Positions 55,788-63,861 of a stretch of 64,000 nt of DNA are shown here, piece by piece. The stretch is from Thermoprotei archaeon (lineage in GTDB: Archaea > Thermoproteota > Thermoprotei > Thermoproteales > B15-G16). Made by a program: the position numbers and the translations under genes. The DNA lies in contig QMRC01000001.1 of NCBI GenBank assembly GCA_003649205.1, positions 32,001-96,000 of the forward strand, given 5' to 3'. Under the pieces are notes generated by a model. It was not told the DNA's origin, ran no database searches, and worked only from the letters and a program-made list of their open reading frames with translations. Numbering within the stretch: the first letter of the stretch is position 1; every line of letters starts with the position of its first letter.

Positions 55788-56330
55788 CTACATTAACCTG
55801 CTTTTTACGTCTCTAATTGCTTCCTCTATGGTCTCTGGTATCGGTAGGTTAAGCTCATTCTACAGTTCAATAAGTTGAGTAGGTTTTCTGGGTACTTCCT
55901 TACGCCAATTTTGATTGTGTAGTAGAGCTTGTTGTATGTTTGATCTTTACCCCTACATATTGTGTACCTGATGTTGTACTTTCTAAGTAGCTCGACTATC
56001 TTTTCGGAATCTCGTACCTATCTTCTGGTACTCTCGGTACTTCTAAGAACCCTTTACATCGATAGTTCCTCTTGATCCGTAGTAGTACATTCCTAACATT
56101 CGTTACTCTATGACTCGAGATCAATATCTTTCTCGGTTGTTGTTTCTTACCTGGATTTCTCCTTAACCTTATTGAAAAACTCATTTAACTTCAATCCACA
56201 TACCAGTATCTCCTTCATAATTTGAAGAAACTTCAAGAGCTTCATCAGTAAGTATTCCAGCCTTAACTATTAGCTCCTTAAGATCTTTCCCCTCCTTAAC
56301 CTGAATTATGGTGTTAAAGAGGCTTACACA
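55788..56330 (-). pseudogene. Decayed gene remnant with several frameshifts and stops
   Basis: Protein-like fragments in alternating minus frames (IQVKEGKDLKELIVKAGIL..., KIVELLRKYNIRYTICRGKDQTYNKLYYTIKIG..., ELNLPIPETIEEAIRDVKSRLM*). Boundaries approximate. Confidence 0.45.
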
Positions 56331-56402
56331 CCCTATCTATTCCAGACTCCAGACATGGTTAATGCCTTGATATAGAAGCATAGCCCATATAGTTAGGATT
56401 TA

Positions 56403-56927
56403 GTGAGGTGTAGACCTATAGGGAGAGACAAAAGAGATTCACTAATTGCCACTGATCGTAGTAAGGGTAGGAAGGTCACATTGTATTCTATTGTGGTATC
56501 TTCCATGAGGGCTAGGGATGAGCTGACGAGGTATGTTGATACGTTTAAACATGTAAAGTTCCTTAGTAGACATGAACGAACAACATACTTCCCTAAGACA
56601 CTTAGGATTATCAAGACACTCGTTGATGCAGATATTTTGCTAAGTATTGATGTAACTAACTACCTAGGAGTACTTCTAGATCATCTTGAGAAAATTAGTA
56701 ATAGAGTAAATAGAGTACTTGTCGCTGTTACAGATGACTACCTAGTTAATATCACCAGGAATAAGCTTAGAGAATCAGTAGTTATAGCTGAAGGCTCTCT
56801 AAGAAGGTATAGAGTTACGCTAGAAAACCTTGGATTAAAGTCATCTGTAATGTACGTTCTTCTAGGTATTGCTGATACACTAGCAGCTTACACTAGAATA
56901 CAAGTTGAAGATCAGGGCAGAAAATAG
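56403..56927 (+). CDS. Putative DUF3800-like (RNase H-fold) protein
   Basis: N-terminal strand with IATDRSKG (DESG-like), mid-protein VAVTDD, C-terminal LGIADTLAAY (compare the DUF3800 xxADxxA helix). Read by eye only. Confidence 0.5.
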   Translation: MRCRPIGRDKRDSLIATDRSKGRKVTLYSIVVSSMRARDELTRYVDTFKHVKFLSRHERTTYFPKTLRIIKTLVDADILLSIDVTNYLGVLLDHLEKISNRVNRVLVAVTDDYLVNITRNKLRESVVIAEGSLRRYRVTLENLGLKSSVMYVLLGIADTLAAYTRIQVEDQGRK

Positions 56928-56969
56928 AGAAATAAGATCGAAATTATCACTAAAGTGGAGTTTATGAAA

Positions 56970-57034
56970 GGTAGACAAGCTCCGCCCCAACCTCATCCCC
57001 CGGGAGTATCCCCCGGCGGTCGAGGGCTTCATCC
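56970..57034 (-). ncRNA. Putative GC-rich structured ncRNA convergent with the DUF3800-like gene
   Basis: High-GC island in AT-rich flanks. Complementary segments CCGCC 56982-86/GGCGG 57015-19, CCGGG 57000-04/CCCGG 57012-16 and AAGC 56977-80/GCTT 57026-29. Minus-strand BRE-TATA lies 25 nt upstream. Confidence 0.55.
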
Positions 57035-57058
57035 GGATAAATAATAGTTTCTAGAGAA

Positions 57059-57074
57059 TTTATATAGCTTTTGC
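57059..57074 (-). promoter_or_regulatory. Archaeal BRE plus TATA box
   Basis: Minus strand reads GCAAAAGC-TATATAAA, placing a predicted start near G57034. Confidence 0.55.
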
Positions 57075-57115
57075 AACTAAAGCCAAAACCGTAAGCGAGA
57101 TAGTATTAATAAGAG

Positions 57116-57589
57116 GTGGTATTTCTGAGATTGCCTTTTCCTAAGTCTAAGAGATTCTATGTGTATCTATGGATTGACTTAGTCATTAGCTCACTTCTTC
57201 TTTCGTTCATAATTTTTATAACGTTTCTCGCCGCTCTCTCCCAGCAATGGCTTGTTTTCATTATTTTTCTAGGATTTCTTTTCGCCTATGTTTGGTGTTG
57301 GTACTCTAGAGACCTATTTATCTTGAGGAATTGGCGTAAGTGTAAGGTTGTTGTTACTGAAAGCTATGATCCGCATTATTTCAAAGCCAAGGGATTTGAA
57401 TTAAATATAAGGAAAATACCTTTCTCATGGTCTAAATATTACAAAGTAACTGTAAACAATGTAAGCTTTATAGTTTATCCTACGAGAATAACTGGTAAAA
57501 TAATGGTAATTCCAGTGAACATACATTTAATACCGAAAAACGTTAATGAGGAAGATTTACGTAAAATACTCCAATTAATTCCAGCGTAG
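57116..57589 (+). CDS. Hypothetical membrane protein (2 TM), AT-rich
   Basis: 157-aa ORF with two hydrophobic segments and atypical base composition. Confidence 0.55.
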   Translation: MVFLRLPFPKSKRFYVYLWIDLVISSLLLSFIIFITFLAALSQQWLVFIIFLGFLFAYVWCWYSRDLFILRNWRKCKVVVTESYDPHYFKAKGFELNIRKIPFSWSKYYKVTVNNVSFIVYPTRITGKIMVIPVNIHLIPKNVNEEDLRKILQLIPA

Positions 57590-58106
57590 ACCACACCATG
57601 CAAGTTGTGAATTTACACATTCCTACACTTCTAGGCCTCAGCTTTGGGTTATTGTACATTATTACTGGTGCATTGTTCTTTACTTTTATTCGTAGGATTC
57701 TTTGTAGGATTAGGCTTACATCTCGGATTCATAGTAGGCATAAAGAGCTATGGTAAGATGGCCTTTCTAATAGCTTCAAACCTATTAGTTACATGCTTAG
57801 AGGCACTAGGTTTTAAGTAACTCCTCATTTATCTTAAAAGTAACAGTCCTCATAATATCACAGTATTCAAATGCTGTTGATGAAGAAGATAGTAAAGCTT
57901 GTTGGATACTATTTCACTAAGGTTCAGGTTCGCTCCACGAACCTCTTATCACGGTCATTAAGCGTGTCAAAATACCTTGGGATTCCTTCACACAATCTCC
58001 TTAATCCTCCTAACGGTAACCTAAACTTCGCCCAAGACCAGTTCTCTATTTAGACTAGTACTAGTAGATGTATGTAAAAACTATTTCCAGTTTAGACTGC
58101 GAGTAG

Positions 58107-58427
58107 GTGTCTGGTATAGAAGGAACCCTCCTAGAGAAGTATGGAAACAGATTTGTATGGATTTGTTACTACTCTTCATTCCAAAGCGGTTCTATGCCTT
58201 GTAGACTTAGATTTAATGGTGCTTTACGATTATTGTTTTACCTTCTTGATGTTGGTGAAGCTAGTTTTAGTAGAACTAGGAATGATTCGATGAAGTATGA
58301 GACTGTGGCTAGAGCTGTTGAGATACTTAAGGAGGTTGGTTTTATTGAGGAGAGAGTAGACAATAAACCACCATACCCTAGACTAGTTAAATTAACTGAT
58401 AAGGGTAAAAATGCTAGTGAACTCTAA
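58107..58427 (+). pseudogene. Winged-HTH regulator, possibly truncated
   Basis: YETVARAVEILKEVGFIEE...PRLVKLTDKG wHTH motif, with the ORF ending just after the wing. Confidence 0.5.
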
Positions 58428-59020
58428 CAGCTTCGCTCATAAATCCTCTGGATTTTCTCCCCAATTAATCAGTAGTTCCTTATCCAGCACCATTCCATAT
58501 AGTTCTCTTAGCTTCTCAATTACCTTTCCTCCATCCCTTATCTTTTCCTTGTACTACTCTTGCTTCTCAAGAGCTAGTAGTAATGCATTTTCAACACCAC
58601 AAGCATACATACCATTACCCATGGTCCCTTAGCATTCAAGAGGACGCCCCATTGTAATGCGAGGTTTTAGAGTACTCTCAGGTGATGTTATTAATTTATG
58701 ACTAGGCGGGTAAAACCTTTAAAACTAGACGAGGAAACATATCAGACCTAGGCTTATGGTATAGTAGTAAGGCTAAGCTTTACTTTAGGAAAGGGGAAGA
58801 GCTATTTCAGCAATATAGGTTTCCATAAGCATTCAGTTATTTCAGGAAAGTATAGCGTTTACCTCAAAATTATCTGTGAATTCTTTAAAATTATCATTAA
58901 AATTATCATTACTAAAAATTACCATAAAGAACATTATGTCAGTGAGCATCTAGAGAAAATAGCCAAAGATATAGACTCCCTTAAGAAAGAGCTTTCACGA
59001 TTAGCCCTAGCATCTAGTCG

Positions 59021-59752
59021 ATGGGTGAGAATGCGACAAAAGACCAGAGGAATTATACGACATGGAAATCAGCGTCCAACGTACTAAACATGTTCAGAAA
59101 CTTCTCAACACTCTTTCTTCCCTTTGGTGCTTCAAGATCTAGATTAAATACTCGGAGAGAATCAAATAAGCAAGCGCAACCAGAAGGCTTGAAAGATCCT
59201 CAGTATAGTAGAGGAGATGGCATAGTTAGTCGAGCAAAATTTGATTACGTAGATCTCTTAATACTAAAGGAGCTAGAGAAAGAAGCACCAAGAGCACCAG
59301 AGGAGCTATCACGAACATTGAATATATGTTCAAAATCGATAAAAAGACATTTCAATAAGCACATCCTCAGGAGAGGTCTCATTGAAGCTCTTCGCATAAG
59401 ATGCTTCTGGTGGAAACCGGAAGAGGCATTATGGTACTCGATGTCGATTACATTTAGCTCAGAAAGTTTCGTTAAATCATTTATAAATACACTATATGGA
59501 TCACCAATAGTTCAATAATTTCTGCTAACAACAAAAGCACGACACATCCTAGTATCAATAGTGCTACCACGAAGCGAAGTAGTAGGTTTATTAAACTTCG
59601 TAAAAAGATTGAAGCATCACAACATTATCACAAAGCTTGAAATGTACCAGTTAGTACTGGATAGCTTCAAGAACTTTACAATACCTTATGAATGCTATGC
59701 AGAAGAGCCAGCTTCTGGAAGTTACCTGTGTCCAGTATTTAGAGTTTTTTAA
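59021..59752 (+). pseudogene. Lrp/AsnC-like HTH regulator interrupted by an in-frame TAA (59516-59518)
   Basis: FDYVDLLILKELE...EELSRTL...SIKRHF.KHI HTH. ORF 59561-59752 continues in the same frame and ends ...FTIPYE. Confidence 0.6.
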
Positions 59753-59830
59753 CTTTACTGCCATGGCAGCCAAGATACATGATAGGTATGCATACCTACT
59801 CTGGCTTAGATCGTGAATACGGTGCTGAGA

Positions 59831-59944
59831 ATGAGGCCAAAAGATATGAGAAGTAGGGTGCTAGTACTCGAAAGGGCTAAGAGCACAATGCTAACAGAGC
59901 CTAACTTCTTCTGTGGGAGCTTCATATCACCTGTACGTACATAG
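59831..59944 (+). CDS. Putative RiPP precursor peptide, 37 aa: MRPKDMRSRVLVLERAKSTMLTEPNFFCGSFISPVRT
   Basis: Manually translated. GGTG RBS at 59821-59824, and the stop codon lies 10 nt before the radical SAM ATG. Below the ORF-track length cutoff. Confidence 0.65.
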   Translation: MRPKDMRSRVLVLERAKSTMLTEPNFFCGSFISPVRT

Positions 59945-59954
59945 AGGGATCACC

Positions 59955-61292
59955 ATGTTCAAACTCTCGAAATTCACTTTATTTTTCCCATATAATGAAA
60001 ACTACGTACTACTTTACAACACCTTGACGAAAGCAATAGCACTAGTCACAAAAGATCTAGCCTATGCACTACGCTCTGGTAATTTTAATGAACTCAGCAA
60101 GGATGAACTCAATGAGCTGTTAAGTAATGGCTTTTTAGTAGAAAAAGATATTGACGAAACAAAACTGCTGATATACCACAGCTATAGATCAATCTTCAAC
60201 TACTCATACCTAAACTTGGTACTTCACATCACATCAGCATGTAATATGAGCTGTATATACTGTTATGAAGGGCCTAAACGAGGACTACATATGGATGAGA
60301 AGGTATGTCAAAATGTAGTGAAGTTCGTTAAGAGGATTGTAGAATGTAGAGGATCAAGGAACGTTGTCACATTACTTCACGGTGGAGAACCTCTCCTGAA
60401 TTATAGGATCCTACTAACGTACTGTCGAGAAATCTATAAGCTCGCTGATGAATATAGGTTGAAAGTAGAGAATATATTGATAACTAATGGTACATTGTTG
60501 ACAAAAGATAAAATTGATACTATATCATGCCTTGTGAACGAAGTACAGGTAACGCTTGATGGTCCTAGAGATATACACGACTTCCGACGACCTTTCATTG
60601 ATGGTAAGGGGACGTTTGATGTAATACTGAGAAATGTGCTTGAGATTGTTGACAGAGTGCAGACCCTAAGTATCAGAATAAATGTTGATAAGCAGAATGT
60701 TATGTACATCACTAAGCTGCTTGACTTACTCAGGGACTATGGTCTTAATAGGAGAAATGTCCTTATAGGTTTTGGTCGAGTATTTGTACCAAGGGTCAGT
60801 AATGGTAGGTACAATCCTGACTGGATTTTCAGTTACAGAGAATTCGTAGATGTCCTCATTGGTCTTCAGAAAGAGGCATTGAGAAGGGGGTTCAAGATAG
60901 TTAGGAAGATAGAGTTAAGGCCTTGCCCTGCATTGCACGATAATAGCTTCGCAGTAGATGAGAGGGGTAAAATATACAAATGTCCTGTATTTGTATGGGA
61001 TGAGAGATTCGCTATTGGAAACATAGATGATCTTGAGATTGCTCTCTTCAGAAATTCATTCGCTAATTACTTGGACTTCATACTAGAGGTTCCTTGGCAG
61101 AAACATTTGGGATGTCCATACTTGCCAATGTGTTACGCTGGCTGCACATACGAGTCTATAGTGCTTAAGGGTAAGATCAATGAGGTATGCTGTCCAAGGG
61201 ATTACTTTGAAAAGTTAGGTGAATTACTTAGGCTCTACGTGGAGTCAAGATATGGAGATGTTCTTGAGAGGTTTAGTAGATGCAGGTGCTGA
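59955..61292 (+). CDS. Radical SAM/SPASM-domain peptide maturase with N-terminal RRE-like region
   Basis: CNMSCIYC, GGEPLL, TNGTLL, QVTLDG..HD..R, SPASM CPA...G.IYKC...HxxCPYLPMCYAGC...CC. N-terminus LYNTLT...L..NGFLV is wHTH-like. Start reassigned to ATG 59955. Confidence 0.85.
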   Translation: MFKLSKFTLFFPYNENYVLLYNTLTKAIALVTKDLAYALRSGNFNELSKDELNELLSNGFLVEKDIDETKLLIYHSYRSIFNYSYLNLVLHITSACNMSCIYCYEGPKRGLHMDEKVCQNVVKFVKRIVECRGSRNVVTLLHGGEPLLNYRILLTYCREIYKLADEYRLKVENILITNGTLLTKDKIDTISCLVNEVQVTLDGPRDIHDFRRPFIDGKGTFDVILRNVLEIVDRVQTLSIRINVDKQNVMYITKLLDLLRDYGLNRRNVLIGFGRVFVPRVSNGRYNPDWIFSYREFVDVLIGLQKEALRRGFKIVRKIELRPCPALHDNSFAVDERGKIYKCPVFVWDERFAIGNIDDLEIALFRNSFANYLDFILEVPWQKHLGCPYLPMCYAGCTYESIVLKGKINEVCCPRDYFEKLGELLRLYVESRYGDVLERFSRCRC

Positions 61293-62203
61293 TAACACGT
61301 GAATTAACTAAGGTCTATAGTGGCTATGTTGTAGCGAATGACAATATCAACATTACGGTCAATAGAGGTGAGGTAGTTGGTATACTTGGTCCTAATGGTG
61401 CTGGTAAGACAACTTTCGTTCGACAGGTCATAGGTGTGCTTAAGCCAACACGTGGATACATTGAGCTACTTGGTCACAAGGTACCTGATGAGATTCACAG
61501 GGTTAAGCACTTCATTGGGTATATGCCTCAGTACCCAGCTTACTACCATGGAGTAACTGTATACCAGCTAGTGTACTACATCGCTAGACTATACGGTATG
61601 TCTAGACGAGAGGCAAAGAGTAGGACTTCTGAAATTCTCAAGGAGATGAACCTCCTAGACTACGCTAACTACTATCACAATAACCTCTCAGTTGGTCTAG
61701 CTAGAGTAACTTACTTTTGCTCAGCTATAGTTCACGATCCAGAGTTCCTAGTACTAGATGAACCAACTAGTATGTTGGATCCATCTATGAGACGTAGAGT
61801 GATATCGAAGATTAAGGAGATGAAGAGACAGGGTAAGACCGTACTTCTGACGACAAATATCATTAGGGATGTTGAGGAGCTATGTGATAGGGTTTACTTC
61901 CTACTAAATGGTAGAGTATTGCTTGAGGGTAGTCCTAGTGAGATTGTATCTCGTATTCTCGGTACAATTAAGGTTCATGTCAAGGTTCGTGAGAAAATTC
62001 CGCTAGAAGAGATGATTAGAGAAAGGTATGGAGATTGCATCGAATCTATTGAGTACTTAGAGGACAATGAGATTGTGCTGAGTGTAAGGAATCTAGTTAG
62101 GGCTTTGGATTTTGTTAAGGAGATAGCGAAGGTAGCAAACATAACCTATATCTCAATCTCAACTCCATCACTTGAGGAGGTGTACCTGAAGATATATGGT
62201 TGA
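61280..62203 (+). CDS. ABC-2 type exporter ATP-binding protein
   Basis: GPNGAGKTT, GYMPQ, LDEPT..LDP. Overlaps the end of the radical SAM gene. Confidence 0.9.
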   Translation: MQVLITRELTKVYSGYVVANDNINITVNRGEVVGILGPNGAGKTTFVRQVIGVLKPTRGYIELLGHKVPDEIHRVKHFIGYMPQYPAYYHGVTVYQLVYYIARLYGMSRREAKSRTSEILKEMNLLDYANYYHNNLSVGLARVTYFCSAIVHDPEFLVLDEPTSMLDPSMRRRVISKIKEMKRQGKTVLLTTNIIRDVEELCDRVYFLLNGRVLLEGSPSEIVSRILGTIKVHVKVREKIPLEEMIRERYGDCIESIEYLEDNEIVLSVRNLVRALDFVKEIAKVANITYISISTPSLEEVYLKIYG

Positions 62204-62945
62204 GGTGGTGAAGGGTATGGTCATGAAGTACCTACGGTCATTAGTAGCTCTATCCACGATGCATCTTAGAGTACTCCTATACTTCTGGCCATATTACCTA
62301 ATGTCCTCACTCCTTACACCACTACTCGTAGTACTCATGCTCTACTACGTACTTGGGTACACAGCAAATGTACTCTACCTGATATGCGCTATGTTCACAC
62401 TATCTTCACTGGGCACATTCACAATGATTTCACAGGACATAAGTAGTCTGAAGCAAACACAGGTGTATGAGTTCTACGCATCATTACCCATATCTCCACT
62501 AGACTACGTGCTATCAAAGCTAATAGCTAATTTAGTCATGTACATACCATCCATAGCTGTATTACTGCTAACTGGATACTTGCTGACAGGTACTCTACCA
62601 AACATACCACTATTCGCTATAGCTGTAGTCATTTCCTACACAGCATTTATATGGTTAGGTATGATCGTAGGACTATACTCACGAAATCCAGTACAGGCTA
62701 ACGTCATATCAATGATTGTGTACCTAGTACTTCTCTTTGGATCACCAATGTATGGACCTATATCCAACACCAACTTAGTGCTTAGAACTGCAGCTCTAGT
62801 ATTACCGACAACGCATATAGCTAAGGTATTCCGCTCCTCATACTGCATTGAAAGCGTGAGCCCTGATACAATCACTTACCTAGCTATATGGTACATAGTG
62901 AACACTGTGATCATATCTAGAAGGTTAAGGTGGACATTAGAGTAA
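62196..62945 (+). CDS. ABC-2 type exporter permease
   Basis: About six TM segments, E.Y.SLPIS..Y..SK, LP.T motif. Overlaps the ATPase stop. Confidence 0.85.
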   Translation: MVEVVKGMVMKYLRSLVALSTMHLRVLLYFWPYYLMSSLLTPLLVVLMLYYVLGYTANVLYLICAMFTLSSLGTFTMISQDISSLKQTQVYEFYASLPISPLDYVLSKLIANLVMYIPSIAVLLLTGYLLTGTLPNIPLFAIAVVISYTAFIWLGMIVGLYSRNPVQANVISMIVYLVLLFGSPMYGPISNTNLVLRTAALVLPTTHIAKVFRSSYCIESVSPDTITYLAIWYIVNTVIISRRLRWTLE

Positions 62946-63149
62946 TGAAGTTTAAAGATCTGCGGAAATAGGTTCGACTTAACAGCAATATTGAGTGATG
63001 GTAGTAGTAATGTACCTGGGGCAAGTATATGAAGTTCAAGGTCTCTAGTTCTTGTGCAGGGAATGCATCCATCATCAGGAGATTGTGTGACTGCTGAAGT
63101 ATGTAGTTGTGTCTGTGGATTGCTCTATCGCTTGTACTTATTATCCGCT

Positions 63150-63861
63150 ATAAGCAGAAACAGGAGTTGCATATACAAACCTCGCATCAGCATCATCAAG
63201 TCCTAGCTCGCAAAGCTTAGAGTAAAGTTCGCGAAATGCTGTAGGAGGTTCATCATCAGTCAAGTACCGTATCATTACTTCCAAATCACTCTCTACCTCC
63301 TGTAACCTATTCCTTAGCAAAACAACATGCAATAATTGAGGGATAGCCATAGCTACTACAGTGCTTGCAGATAATGGTCGTGATGAAATTTCAACTCTAC
63401 TACCAATACCAGGAGTGAATTGATGCGATGGAGATACAGAGCACAGCCTCTCCATACTACTCCGCTACTCACCTACAACATCAAGGTACTTAGCTATTTC
63501 CTCACGATTTCAGATAAAGCGACATTCGAGAGAAGTAGTACTCAAGTCAATAATTGACCTATTGAATCGATTGATAGTGACGAGACATAGCAGGAGGAGA
63601 CTTGTTCAGGTGTACTACGAAACACGGGTTAGGGAGAACATTGAGAAAGCTACTGAGTAGCTTAGGGATATAGGTATGACCAATGTTAGGGTGTATGAGG
63701 ATAAGGCGAAGAATGGTGTAGTGTATAGACTTTATTTTGGTGTTAGCAAGTCAACTGTAGGCATTCTATACAGGTTACTTGAAGAGATGAGGAAGATGAG
63801 TGTTGACCAAGATAAGGTAGTGAAGTTGGAGGAGGCAATAAAGTTCTTGACTCAGGAGTAA
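63150..63861 (+). pseudogene. Decayed gene remnant, including track ORF 63676-63861
   Basis: The frame of ORF 63676 extends upstream through in-frame stops at 63658 and 63421. Boundaries approximate. Confidence 0.35.

What the first reader, a model, noticed from the sequence alone, without database searches (positions are those of the whole stretch)
59831..62945. Candidate archaeal RiPP biosynthetic cluster: precursor peptide, radical SAM/SPASM maturase and ABC-2 exporter
Seen: four tightly coupled same-strand genes. A 37-aa ORF ends 10 nt before a 445-aa radical SAM protein (CxxxCxxC plus a C-terminal SPASM Cys cluster), which overlaps an ABC ATPase, which in turn overlaps a permease. Established: short ORF plus rSAM/SPASM plus exporter is the layout of sactipeptide, ranthipeptide and triceptide RiPP clusters, which are characterised mainly in bacteria. 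Inference: this is a secreted cross-linked peptide pathway in a probably thermophilic crenarchaeon. It is intact although the neighbouring genes are decayed. No leader protease is visible in the window.
Basis: partly seen in the sequence, partly recalled or inferred. Interest (0 to 1): 0.9.

Follow-up and report, generated by a model that had tools for sequence, protein, structure and literature searches.

The report
Archaeal radical-SAM peptide-maturation gene cluster
A small strain-variable gene island in an uncultured hot-vent archaeon encodes what looks like a complete kit for making and exporting a cross-linked peptide; this kind of cluster is already predicted in many archaea but has never been tested in this lineage.

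Summary
The four same-strand genes exist exactly as described: a 37-codon ORF (59831-59944), a 445-aa radical SAM enzyme (59955-61292), an ABC ATPase (61280-62203) and an ABC-2 permease (62196-62945), with gaps/overlaps of +10, -13 and -8 nt. The enzyme belongs to the peptide-maturase branch of rSAM/SPASM enzymes. Its best NCBIfam hits are CefB, geopeptide, Clo7bot and TIGR04463 maturases, all below their cut-offs. Its predicted fold is closest to CteB and TigE, not to sulfatase maturases. Relatives in the same tree clade carry obvious Cys-containing precursors. One metagenomic locus repeats the whole rSAM-ATPase-permease cassette with identical overlaps. The genome's own paralogue has a conserved 24-aa ORF just upstream.

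The 37-aa ORF has no detectable homologue, and an ORF like it arises by chance in 3-9% of shuffles. However, a co-fold places its VLVLE stretch on the enzyme's N-terminal recognition domain (0.76 versus 0.01 for controls).

The enzyme is the only one of 200 relatives that lacks one canonical SPASM cysteine (it has His384).

The cluster lies in low-GC DNA that is absent from the sister genome.

Verdict: a probable RiPP cluster and a new member of a known kind. The precursor and the chemistry are unproven.

The parts
59831..59944 (+). Candidate precursor peptide, 37 aa (an alternative start at Met6, ATG 59846, gives 32 aa). The proposed leader is about residues 1-24 and contains VLVLE. The proposed core is about residues 25-37, with a single Cys28 in an NFFC motif.
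   Evidence: ORF. GGTG lies 6 nt before the ATG, and the stop lies 10 nt before the enzyme's start. Co-fold: residues 8-17 lie against the enzyme's N-terminal domain. Local similarity to the paralogue's upstream 24-aa ORF: score 26, reached by 0.9% of 1000 shuffles. Against: no family hit, no homologue found, and rank 3396 of 51,033 with the geopeptide-type HMM.
59955..61292 (+). Radical SAM/SPASM peptide maturase, 445 aa. N-terminal recognition (RRE-like) domain about residues 1-88; rSAM core about 89-265 with C96/C100/C103; C-terminal auxiliary-cluster domain about 315-420.
   Evidence: Pfam and NCBIfam hits. Alignment. Model with pLDDT 89.5. Fold matches to CteB (5why/5wgg) and TigE (8vpo). 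Sequence match to CteB, E 1.8e-15. His384 stands where 199 of 200 relatives have a Cys.
61280..62203 (+). ABC transporter ATPase of the DrrA-like type, 307 aa.
   Evidence: ABC_tran 90.5 bits. TIGR01188 drrA 210.6 bits, below its cut-off of 312. 35% identity (E 1e-56) to the ATPase at the same position in locus L109.
62196..62945 (+). ABC-2 type permease, 249 aa.
   Evidence: ABC2_membrane 55 bits. 24% identity (E 4e-08) to the permease at the same position in L109.
59021..59752 (+). Possible decayed winged-helix regulator: a 165-aa ORF, an in-frame TAA, then a 63-aa ORF in the same frame.
   Evidence: HTH_24 and HTH_AsnC-type hits only at E 0.045-0.16, below the cut-offs. Stops shown. A 1-nt deletion at 59611 in contigs of runs X2 and X3.
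59145..63150 (.). Strain-variable module that carries the cluster. It is absent from the same-genus genome G001 and present at about 95% identity in a contig of an independent run.
   Evidence: blastn of the G001 contigs. X2 record 4 covers 59306-62096 with 142 differences. Loose ends and contig ends lie at 63150. GC is 38-41% against 43.2% for the genome.
56158..59074 (.). Further 2.9-kb insertion, specific to this assembly, lying to the left of the module.
   Evidence: A contig of X2 joins 56157 to 59075. The G001 contig aligns up to 56157 and again at 59075-59144.
63141..63455 (-). Gene truncated at the right edge of the module: 104 aa here, 195 aa in G001.

Best explanation
This is a compact biosynthetic cluster for a ribosomally made, post-translationally cross-linked peptide (RiPP). 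It is carried on a strain-variable, low-GC module of an uncultured Thermoproteota archaeon. The proposed mechanism has three steps. First, the 37-aa ORF is translated, and its aliphatic VLVLE stretch docks as a beta-strand on the N-terminal recognition domain of the radical SAM enzyme. This step has model support only. Second, the enzyme cleaves SAM at the C96/C100/C103 cluster and uses the 5'-deoxyadenosyl radical to abstract a hydrogen in the 13-residue core. Most probably it then joins the single Cys28 sulfur to a carbon of a nearby residue, giving one thioether ring of the ranthipeptide or sactipeptide type. This step is inferred from the family. Third, the DrrAB-like ABC-2 pump exports the product and/or protects the producer. 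This step is inferred from gene coupling and from the same cassette elsewhere. No protease is encoded in the module, so either the leader is kept or a host protease trims it.
For: Enzyme family. The best NCBIfam hits are RiPP maturases over nearly the full length: CefB 3e-73, geopeptide maturase 1e-68, Clo7bot 2e-58, TIGR04463 3e-52. Anaerobic sulfatase maturase scores only 1e-22.

Fold. The model (pLDDT 89.5) is closest to CteB (TM 0.68-0.72 over 448-465 columns, including the N-terminal domain) and TigE (0.71). anSME follows at TMq 0.55-0.59.

Family-level precursor test. In a FastTree of 215 sequences the enzyme sits in a clade (support 0.78) with L109, L148, L046, its own paralogue and five database proteins. 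L109 has three tandem 30-aa Cys-containing ORFs directly upstream. L046 has a 30-aa ORF with three Cys. The paralogue has a 24-aa ORF ending about 15 nt before its start. That ORF is conserved in G001 with three synonymous and two replacement codon changes, while the intergenic DNA upstream diverges more.

Cassette. L109 repeats rSAM-ATPase-permease with the same 13-nt and 8-nt overlaps, and all three proteins are homologous (27%, 35% and 24% identity).

Peptide. The co-fold score is 0.76 with a best control of 0.01 among 3 controls. In the tool's calibration this mark was reached by 58 of 80 solved complexes and 2 of 110 mismatched pairs. The runs agree in at least 66% of contacts, and the partner's pLDDT is at least 52. 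The interface is peptide residues 8-17 against enzyme residues 22, 25-32, 34-35, 48-59 and 429-440. Like complexes are solved (CteB and SuiB with their leaders), so the pass shows likeness to that binding mode, not binding itself.

Further points. The ORF's similarity to the paralogue's peptide scores 26, which 0.9% of 1000 shuffles reach, and aligns NFFC with NIFC. Both short ORFs have GGTG 6 nt before their ATG, and both enzymes have an SD-like GAGG/GGTGA in the short gap.
Against: The 37-aa ORF has no homologue and no family hit. It scores 0.0 bits (rank 3396 of 51,033 six-frame segments) with an HMM built from 15 geopeptide-type precursors.

An ORF of this size and position arises in 3-9% of shuffles.

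It lies in the same reading frame as the decayed upstream ORFs, though five stops intervene.

It has only one Cys, whereas the clade's clear precursors have two or three.

Its conservation in the roughly 95%-identical strain variant could not be read, because the difference table was truncated.

The enzyme lacks the first Cys of the CX2-3CX5CX3C motif, which 199 of 200 relatives have. One auxiliary cluster may therefore be altered or the enzyme impaired.

All NCBIfam equivalog scores are far below their cut-offs.

No expression data exist.
Confidence: 0.6

Rival explanations
1. The enzyme and pump are a genuine RiPP cassette, but the 37-aa ORF is a chance ORF or a remnant of the decayed upstream gene. 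The true substrate would then be encoded elsewhere or have been lost, leaving an orphan or decaying cluster.
For: ORFs like this occur in 3-9% of shuffles. It shares a frame with the broken upstream ORFs. It has no homologue or family hit. The surroundings are a patchwork of insertions and truncated genes. The enzyme itself has lost a conserved Cys.
Against: The co-fold scores 0.76 against 0.01 for the controls, with the interface on the recognition domain. SD-like motifs precede both the ORF and the enzyme. The paralogue and clade relatives have the same layout of short ORF then enzyme. The ORF is similar to the paralogue's peptide. phmmer with default filters found no second copy of either peptide in the genome.
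Confidence: 0.25
2. The pathway is real, but the chemistry is not a Cys thioether. The enzyme would install another radical cross-link or modification in the Phe-rich core, such as a C-C cyclophane, an epimerisation or a cyclopropyl-type link, possibly connected with its unusual His384.
For: The core has one Cys but three Phe. TigE, a solved structure whose entry title is given, is as close in fold as CteB; that it is a cyclopropylglycine synthase comes from recall and from the listing of PMC10878394. NCBIfam also lists cyclophane-forming maturases at E 1e-15 to 4e-20. The missing Cys is unique among 200 relatives.
Against: The four best-scoring families all pair with Cys-rich substrates. One of them, TIGR04463, has a member shown to make ranthionine links (PMC13692751, abstract). 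Every recognisable precursor in the clade contains Cys in its core. A motif of hydrophobic residue, aromatic residue, then Cys recurs.
Confidence: 0.2
3. The enzyme is not a peptide maturase but a protein or cofactor maturase of the SPASM group (sulfatase maturase, heme or PQQ-type), and the ABC-2 pump is an unrelated efflux system.
For: anSME, NirJ and AhbC models give hits at E 1e-14 to 1e-22. anSME structures are among the fold matches.
Against: Those hits cover only the rSAM core (residues about 88-266) and score 150-190 bits lower than the RiPP maturase models. The N-terminal recognition domain is present and is matched in CteB; the anSME chains are about 360-380 residues, against 421-440 for CteB. 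The pump genes overlap the enzyme gene, and the trio recurs in L109 next to tandem precursors.
Confidence: 0.04

Closest known systems
CteB/CteA (SCIFF-type thioether maturase of Clostridium thermocellum; PDB 5wgg, 5why)
   Same: Same three-part architecture: N-terminal recognition domain, rSAM core and SPASM domain. It is the best sequence match among solved structures (E 1.8e-15) and the best fold match (TM 0.68-0.72). The leader is predicted to bind the same N-terminal domain.
   Different: Only about 20% identity. The SCIFF maturase model TIGR03974 scores 87.7 bits against a cut-off of 425. The candidate substrate has one Cys rather than six (the six is recalled). One SPASM Cys is replaced by His.
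CrpC/CrpA of Methanococcus voltae (TIGR04463 family; ranthionine links; PMC13692751, abstract and passages read)
   Same: An archaeal rSAM/SPASM enzyme with a recognition domain. TIGR04463 is the fourth-best model for the window's enzyme (E 3e-52 over residues 7-414). The substrate is encoded next to the enzyme.
   Different: The score of 177.8 is below the 525 cut-off, so the window's enzyme is not a member. CrpA is a large Cys-rich protein with repeats, not a 37-aa single-Cys peptide. The paper passages read do not mention an exporter.
CefB (Cys-every-fifth) and geopeptide maturases (NF038107, TIGR04280), families defined bioinformatically
   Same: These are the best-scoring models over nearly the full length. 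Relatives of these types carry short upstream precursors ending 50-200 nt before the enzyme.
   Different: Scores of 247 and 232 bits lie below the cut-offs of 600 and 400. The 37-aa ORF does not match an HMM of 15 geopeptide-type precursors. It has neither the Cys-Cys pair nor the Cys-every-fifth repeat.
Uncharacterised metagenomic cluster L109 (contig Ga0074197_1000286)
   Same: Same clade in the tree. Same order of precursor(s), rSAM, ABC ATPase and ABC-2 permease, with identical 13-nt and 8-nt overlaps. All three proteins are homologous.
   Different: It has three tandem 30-aa precursors with a C-x2-C-x3-C core, against one 37-aa ORF with a single Cys. Protein identities are only 24-35%. 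Its SPASM motif is complete.
Sactipeptide clusters with ABC immunity or export genes (for example subtilosin alb and skf; recalled)
   Same: An rSAM/SPASM maturase next to ABC components. SkfB is among the sequence and fold matches.
   Different: The similarity is much weaker (E 1.1e-05). The hosts are bacterial. Those clusters include proteases or other tailoring genes (recalled).

Membership tests
Radical SAM superfamily | CX3CX2C motif binding the SAM-cleaving [4Fe-4S] cluster, and a Pfam PF04055 match above the gathering score | tested here: met
   C96/C100/C103 are invariant in 32 of 32 aligned sequences. PF04055 scores 51.1 bits against a cut-off of 29.5.
SPASM subgroup of radical SAM enzymes | Seven-Cys C-terminal motif (CX9-15GX4C ... 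CX2CX5CX3C ... C) for two auxiliary clusters | tested here: inconclusive
   Six of the seven positions are present (C324, C343, C387, C393, C397, C413). The first Cys of CX2CX5CX3C is His384. Among relatives with the CX5CX3-4C motif, 199 of 200 have a Cys 1-5 residues upstream, and the window's enzyme is the only exception. An extra Cys412 is present. Pfam SPASM gave no hit at E <= 0.01, here or in the precomputed domains of the listed relatives. The fold aligns with CteB over its whole length.
RiPP maturases with a recognition element (RRE) | N-terminal domain of beta-strands and helices that binds the leader as an added strand | tested here: met
   The model has strands 2-4, 8-12, 17-22 and 27-32 and helices 33-41, 49-57 and 68-80, with block pLDDT 89-96. 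The alignment to CteB includes this domain. In the co-fold the peptide lies on residues 25-32 and 48-59. No RRE-Finder run was possible.
CefB (NF038107), geopeptide maturase (TIGR04280), Clo7bot (TIGR04334), TIGR04463 | Score at or above the curated equivalog cut-off | tested here: not met
   Scores against cut-offs: 247/600, 231.9/400, 198.1/600 and 177.8/525. The enzyme is related to these families but is a member of none.
Ranthipeptide / sactipeptide RiPP class | Precursor with a leader and a Cys-containing core, encoded beside the maturase | tested here: inconclusive
   The candidate is a 37-aa ORF with one Cys at position 28. Its status as a gene is not proven.
Ranthipeptide / sactipeptide RiPP class | A thioether from Cys sulfur to an alpha, beta or gamma carbon in the mature product | not testable with these tools
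   This needs mass spectrometry or NMR of the product.
Anaerobic sulfatase-maturating enzymes | TIGR03942 or PRK13758 above the cut-off; no N-terminal recognition domain | tested here: not met
   Scores of 80.6 against 349 and 54.6 against 441, covering only residues about 89-263. An N-terminal domain is present.
ABC-2 (DrrAB-type) exporter | ABC_tran ATPase plus a separate ABC2_membrane permease, with the genes coupled | tested here: met
   PF00005 scores 90.5 and PF01061 scores 55, both above their cut-offs. The genes overlap by 8 nt. drrA TIGR01188 scores 210.6, below its 312 cut-off. The transported substrate is unknown.

The most novel reading that the evidence does not exclude
A Thermoproteota archaeon makes a very small exported peptide with a single ring from a 13-residue, Phe-rich, single-Cys core. 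The enzyme's second auxiliary Fe-S cluster would be ligated by His, or have an open site, instead of the Cys found in 199 of 200 relatives, giving a cross-link or cluster chemistry not yet described for SPASM maturases. The cluster sits on a strain-variable module and so could mediate antagonism or signalling between vent strains. It would be the first radical-SAM RiPP with a defined product from this phylum.
Probability: 0.15. Interest if true: 0.7.

Novelty: new member of a known kind. Interest (0 to 1): 0.45.

Why it matters
Radical-SAM RiPP clusters in archaea are counted in genome-mining surveys (PMC12144867, passages read) but almost never characterised. The one biochemical example I found acts on a large protein in a methanogen (PMC13692751, abstract and passages read).

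This locus offers a minimal four-gene system with a concrete 37-aa substrate candidate, a predicted leader-binding mode and a natural Cys-to-His variant of a SPASM cluster ligand. It comes from an uncultured vent lineage and has a second, simpler paralogous pair in the same genome for comparison.

If the peptide is modified, the system would be a tractable entry point to crenarchaeal peptide natural products and to the role of the second auxiliary cluster. If it is not, this is an ordinary, partly decayed island.

Tried and rejected
1. Geopeptide homology of the 37-aa ORF. By eye its layout resembled the upstream peptides of the Geobacter and Nitrospirota-type relatives: an aliphatic run, then Cys about 11 residues later. 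An HMM of 15 such peptides was searched with --max against 51,033 six-frame segments of the genome. The ORF ranked 3396, at 0.0 bits and E 2.9e3. The resemblance is therefore not supported. Of the 21 ORFs found by the rule, six were dropped by the Met-distance rule (L027, L030, L039, L067, L083, L088).

2. NCBIfam at E <= 10 on five short ORFs near the cluster gave no family.

With the 43-aa GTG form it found no candidate, not even the ORF itself.

4. Expression: no RNA holder was listed.

5. Read laying showed a contig at about 95% identity across 59306-62096. Its table of differences was cut before 59831, so conservation of the ORF could not be read. Parts without cover are not interpreted.

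6. I assumed the island was an insertion between adjacent rpS6e and aIF2-gamma genes. In four complete or near-complete genomes of the order the two genes are far apart or on different contigs, and in G001 they lie on different contigs. The borders were instead defined from the G001 contigs and the run contigs.

7. No tRNA lies in 40000-64000 or in L017. No integrase was seen among the ORFs listed.

8. Reading the 37-aa ORF as the tail of one long broken gene from 59021 is unlikely as a single gene, because five stops intervene, but it is not excluded.

9. Other local candidates were considered. One is a 50-aa GTG ORF with five Cys at 63054-63206, which has no leader-like part and overlaps minus-strand ORFs. 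The others are the 42-aa and 63-aa ORFs at 59561-59816.

10. One search timed out without output; it was repeated.

The contigs of the closest database proteins (P0002-P0005, P0009, P0010) could therefore not be inspected.

12. Supplementary files were not requested. The BGC tables of PMC12144867 and PMC13635244 may already list this or similar clusters.

Full report
OBSERVATION. The ORF listing and the sequence give four + strand ORFs:
- an ATG ORF of 37 codons at 59831-59944;
- a 445-aa ORF from ATG 59955 to 61292;
- a 307-aa ORF at 61280-62203;
- a 249-aa ORF at 62196-62945.

The spacings are a 10-nt gap, a 13-nt overlap and an 8-nt overlap. The alignment with 31 relatives shows that ATG 59955, not the GTG at 59913, is the enzyme's start. 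GGTG lies 6 nt before the short ORF's ATG. GAGGG, which overlaps the short ORF's stop, lies 6 nt before the enzyme's ATG. Reading these as Shine-Dalgarno-like motifs typical of genes inside archaeal operons is my inference from general knowledge.

THE ENZYME.
- Family hits. Pfam gives Radical_SAM and Fer4_12 above their cut-offs. NCBIfam's best hits span nearly the whole protein and are all peptide maturases: CefB 3e-73, geopeptide maturase 1e-68, Clo7bot 2e-58, TIGR04463 3e-52. All are far below their equivalog cut-offs. Sulfatase maturase models reach only about 1e-22 and cover only the core.
- Relatives. The nearest protein among 5.8 billion is 35% identical.
- Structure. The AlphaFold model (32-row alignment, pLDDT 89.5) has an N-terminal domain of strands and helices, a partial TIM barrel and a C-terminal domain. 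Foldseek ranks CteB (5why, 5wgg; TM 0.68-0.72) and TigE (8vpo; 0.71) first. anSME, SuiB, ChlB and SkfB follow. phmmer against PDB also ranks CteB first.
- Cysteines. C96/C100/C103 and six C-terminal cysteines are invariant in the alignment. One canonical SPASM cysteine is missing: the first Cys of CX2-3CX5CX3C. Position 384 is His. Of 215 collected relatives, 200 have the CX5CX3-4C motif, and 199 of these have a Cys 1-5 residues upstream. The window's enzyme is the only exception. An extra Cys412 sits beside C413. I recall, but did not test, that this missing Cys ligates the second auxiliary cluster in anSME.

DO RELATIVES HAVE PRECURSORS? I collected 80 loci from species genomes and 80 from metagenomes. 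Many relatives show unmistakable short Cys-containing ORFs beside the enzyme:
- Upstream ORFs of about 30 aa with a Cys-Cys pair. The rule found 21 of them among the 80 genome loci.
- Cys-every-fifth repeats (L023, L038) and CQV-type repeats (L040).
- Short downstream peptides in the two loci with the best tblastn matches, L098 and L018.

I then built a FastTree of 215 sequences. These were 167 of the 174 loci with a match, the window's enzyme and 47 database proteins. Seven loci were dropped because the extracted ORF was under 330 aa or contained X. The tree puts the window's enzyme with P0005, P0009, P0010 and L046 (support 0.96), inside a clade (0.78) that also holds P0003, P0004, L109, L148 and the genome's own paralogue, L002 with its G001 orthologue L006. 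Within this clade:
- L109 has three tandem 30-aa ORFs with a C-x2-C-x3-C core, then the enzyme, an ABC ATPase overlapping by 13 nt and an ABC-2 permease overlapping by 8 nt. This is the same geometry as the window. All three proteins are homologous to the window's (27%, 35% and 24% identity).
- L046 (Beduini massiliensis) has a 30-aa three-Cys ORF 133 nt upstream and two fused ABC exporters downstream.
- The paralogue at C4:67730-68908 has a 24-aa ORF ending about 15 nt before its start, preceded by GGGTG at the same 6-nt spacing. In G001 this ORF differs by two replacement and three synonymous codon changes, while the DNA just upstream is more divergent.

IS THE 37-aa ORF THE PRECURSOR?
Evidence for:
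- Position, strand and SD-like motifs.
- The same layout in the paralogue.
- A local alignment with the paralogue's peptide, which starts at Met6 and aligns NFFC with NIFC. It scores 26, a value reached by 0.9% of 1000 shuffles.
- The co-fold. It scores 0.76 in three runs (0.76, 0.76, 0.78) against a best control of 0.01 among 3 controls. In the tool's calibration this mark was reached by 58 of 80 solved complexes and 2 of 110 mismatched pairs. The runs agree in at least 66% of contacts, and the partner's pLDDT is at least 52. Peptide residues 8-17, which include VLVLE, lie against enzyme residues 25-32 (a strand of the N-terminal domain), 48-59 and the C-terminal helix 429-440. This is the binding mode known from solved maturase-leader complexes, so the pass may partly reflect memory of those. 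It shows likeness, not binding.

Evidence against:
- No family hit or homologue.
- Failure against the geopeptide-type HMM.
- A chance rate of 3-9% for such an ORF.
- The same frame as the broken upstream ORFs.
- A single Cys.
- No readable data on the ORF in strain variants.

phmmer found no other copy of either peptide in the genome. I put the ORF being the substrate at about 0.6, and the cassette being a RiPP system at about 0.85.

GENOMIC SETTING.
- Host. The window is C1:32001-96000 of a 2.07-Mb, 31-contig genome, 93.8% complete, with 43.2% GC. The host is archaeal: the flanks encode aIF5B, S6e, aIF2-gamma, RpoE, Kae1 and Bud32. I named these from their sequences. Only aIF2-gamma was checked, by its precomputed Pfam domains. 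Named relatives of its aIF2-gamma are Thermoproteales, Thermoprotei and Thermofilum records at 61-63% identity, and the best unnamed hit is 69%. The host is thus a poorly sampled Thermoproteota lineage.
- Composition. GC falls to 37-41% between about 56 and 64 kb.
- Sister genome. The same-genus genome G001 (S6e 99% and aIF2-gamma 98% identical) lacks the cluster. Its contig aligns up to 56157 and again at 59075-59144, then diverges into a LAGLIDADG-like gene. From the other side it aligns up to 63150, where the window's 104-aa ORF continues as a 195-aa ORF. G001 does have the paralogue.
- Other strains. Contigs of independent runs labelled hydrothermal-vent metagenomes carry the cluster at about 95% identity (X2 record 4: 59306-62096 with 142 differences). 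They join 56157 directly to 59075, and they stop or change at 63150.
- Conclusion. The cluster lies on a module of about 4 kb (roughly 59145-63150) that is present in some strains and absent from the sister species. A further 2.9-kb insertion (56158-59074) is specific to this assembly. No tRNA gene or integrase was seen.

MECHANISM (inferred). The leader docks on the recognition domain. SAM is cleaved reductively at the C96/C100/C103 cluster. A hydrogen is abstracted in the core, and the Cys28 thiolate, probably held at an auxiliary cluster, captures the radical to give a single thioether ring. The DrrAB-like ABC-2 pump then exports the product or confers immunity. The family link to thioether chemistry rests on CteB (structure titles) and on CrpC, a TIGR04463 member from Methanococcus voltae shown to install ranthionine links (PMC13692751, abstract and passages read). 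With one Cys, three Phe and an altered auxiliary-cluster ligand, other radical chemistry remains possible (about 0.2).

NOVELTY. Genome mining has already reported rSAM-dependent RiPP clusters (ranthipeptides and sactipeptides) across Asgard, TACK, DPANN and Euryarchaeota, including 962 BGCs of all kinds in Thermoproteota (PMC12144867, passages read). A vent study calls ranthipeptides 'only recently reported in archaea' (PMC13635244, passages read). My two full-text searches were 'archaea + RiPP + radical SAM + SPASM' (18 papers) and 'ranthipeptide + archaea' (89 papers, 15 listed). Among the listed titles and abstracts I saw no characterised product from Thermoproteota. I did not read all the papers, and I saw no supplements. 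The locus is thus a new member of a known kind. It has two unusual details, a single-Cys core and a missing SPASM Cys, and a useful natural comparison in the paralogous pair.

VERDICT. Interest is moderate at 0.45: it is worth a co-expression experiment but is not surprising to specialists.

Noticed in passing
G000 C4:67602-68908 (locus L002 1376-2700); G001 C33 (L006): A second, paralogous rSAM/SPASM maturase (33% identical to the window's) has a 24-aa two-Cys ORF about 15 nt upstream. The ORF is conserved in the sister genome with synonymous changes. No transporter is adjacent, and a divergent ArsR-type HTH gene lies upstream. This is probably a second RiPP pair in the same genome.
   Followed up: partly
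window 61101-61106 region (enzyme residue 384; motif at residues 384-397): His replaces the first Cys of the CX2-3CX5CX3C SPASM motif. Among 200 relatives with the motif, this enzyme is the only one lacking that Cys. An extra Cys412 sits next to C413.
   Followed up: partly
window 56158-59074: A 2.9-kb stretch at 37% GC is absent from G001 and from a vent-metagenome contig that joins 56157 to 59075. It holds ORFs of 174, 157 (membrane-like) and 106 aa (weak winged-helix hit) with no family assignment.
   Followed up: partly
L178 1585-2577 (-) = G001 C29: At the place where the window carries the cluster, the sister genome has a 330-aa LAGLIDADG-like endonuclease gene (Pfam LAGLIDADG_3, E 3e-05). 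A 70-nt remnant of it, 93% identical, lies at window 59075-59144.
   Followed up: partly
window 63141-63455 (-); L179 6143-6730: An ORF of unknown function is 104 aa in the window but 195 aa in G001. The sequences part at 63150, which is also where vent-run contigs begin or have loose ends. This marks the right-hand breakpoint of the variable module.
   Followed up: yes
L098 5375-5455; L018 about 58-135 nt after the enzyme's stop: The two loci with the best tblastn matches to the window's enzyme encode short peptides just downstream of it (26 and about 21 aa). They share a basic Val-rich leader and have cores with one or two Cys next to aromatic residues. Single-Cys cores therefore exist among the collected relatives.
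   Followed up: no
window 59611: Contigs of two independent runs (X2, X3) lack one base here, inside the 63-aa ORF that follows the in-frame stop of the HTH-like ORF. The reading frame of this decayed region differs between strains.
   Followed up: no
G000 C6:32735-32869 (-): This segment was the best genome-wide hit of the geopeptide-type precursor HMM (E 0.14, 13.7 bits). It was not examined, and no rSAM match lies on that contig.
   Followed up: no
G004 C1:706520-707746: The aIF2-gamma match in this complete genome of the same order contains one in-frame TGA.
   Followed up: no
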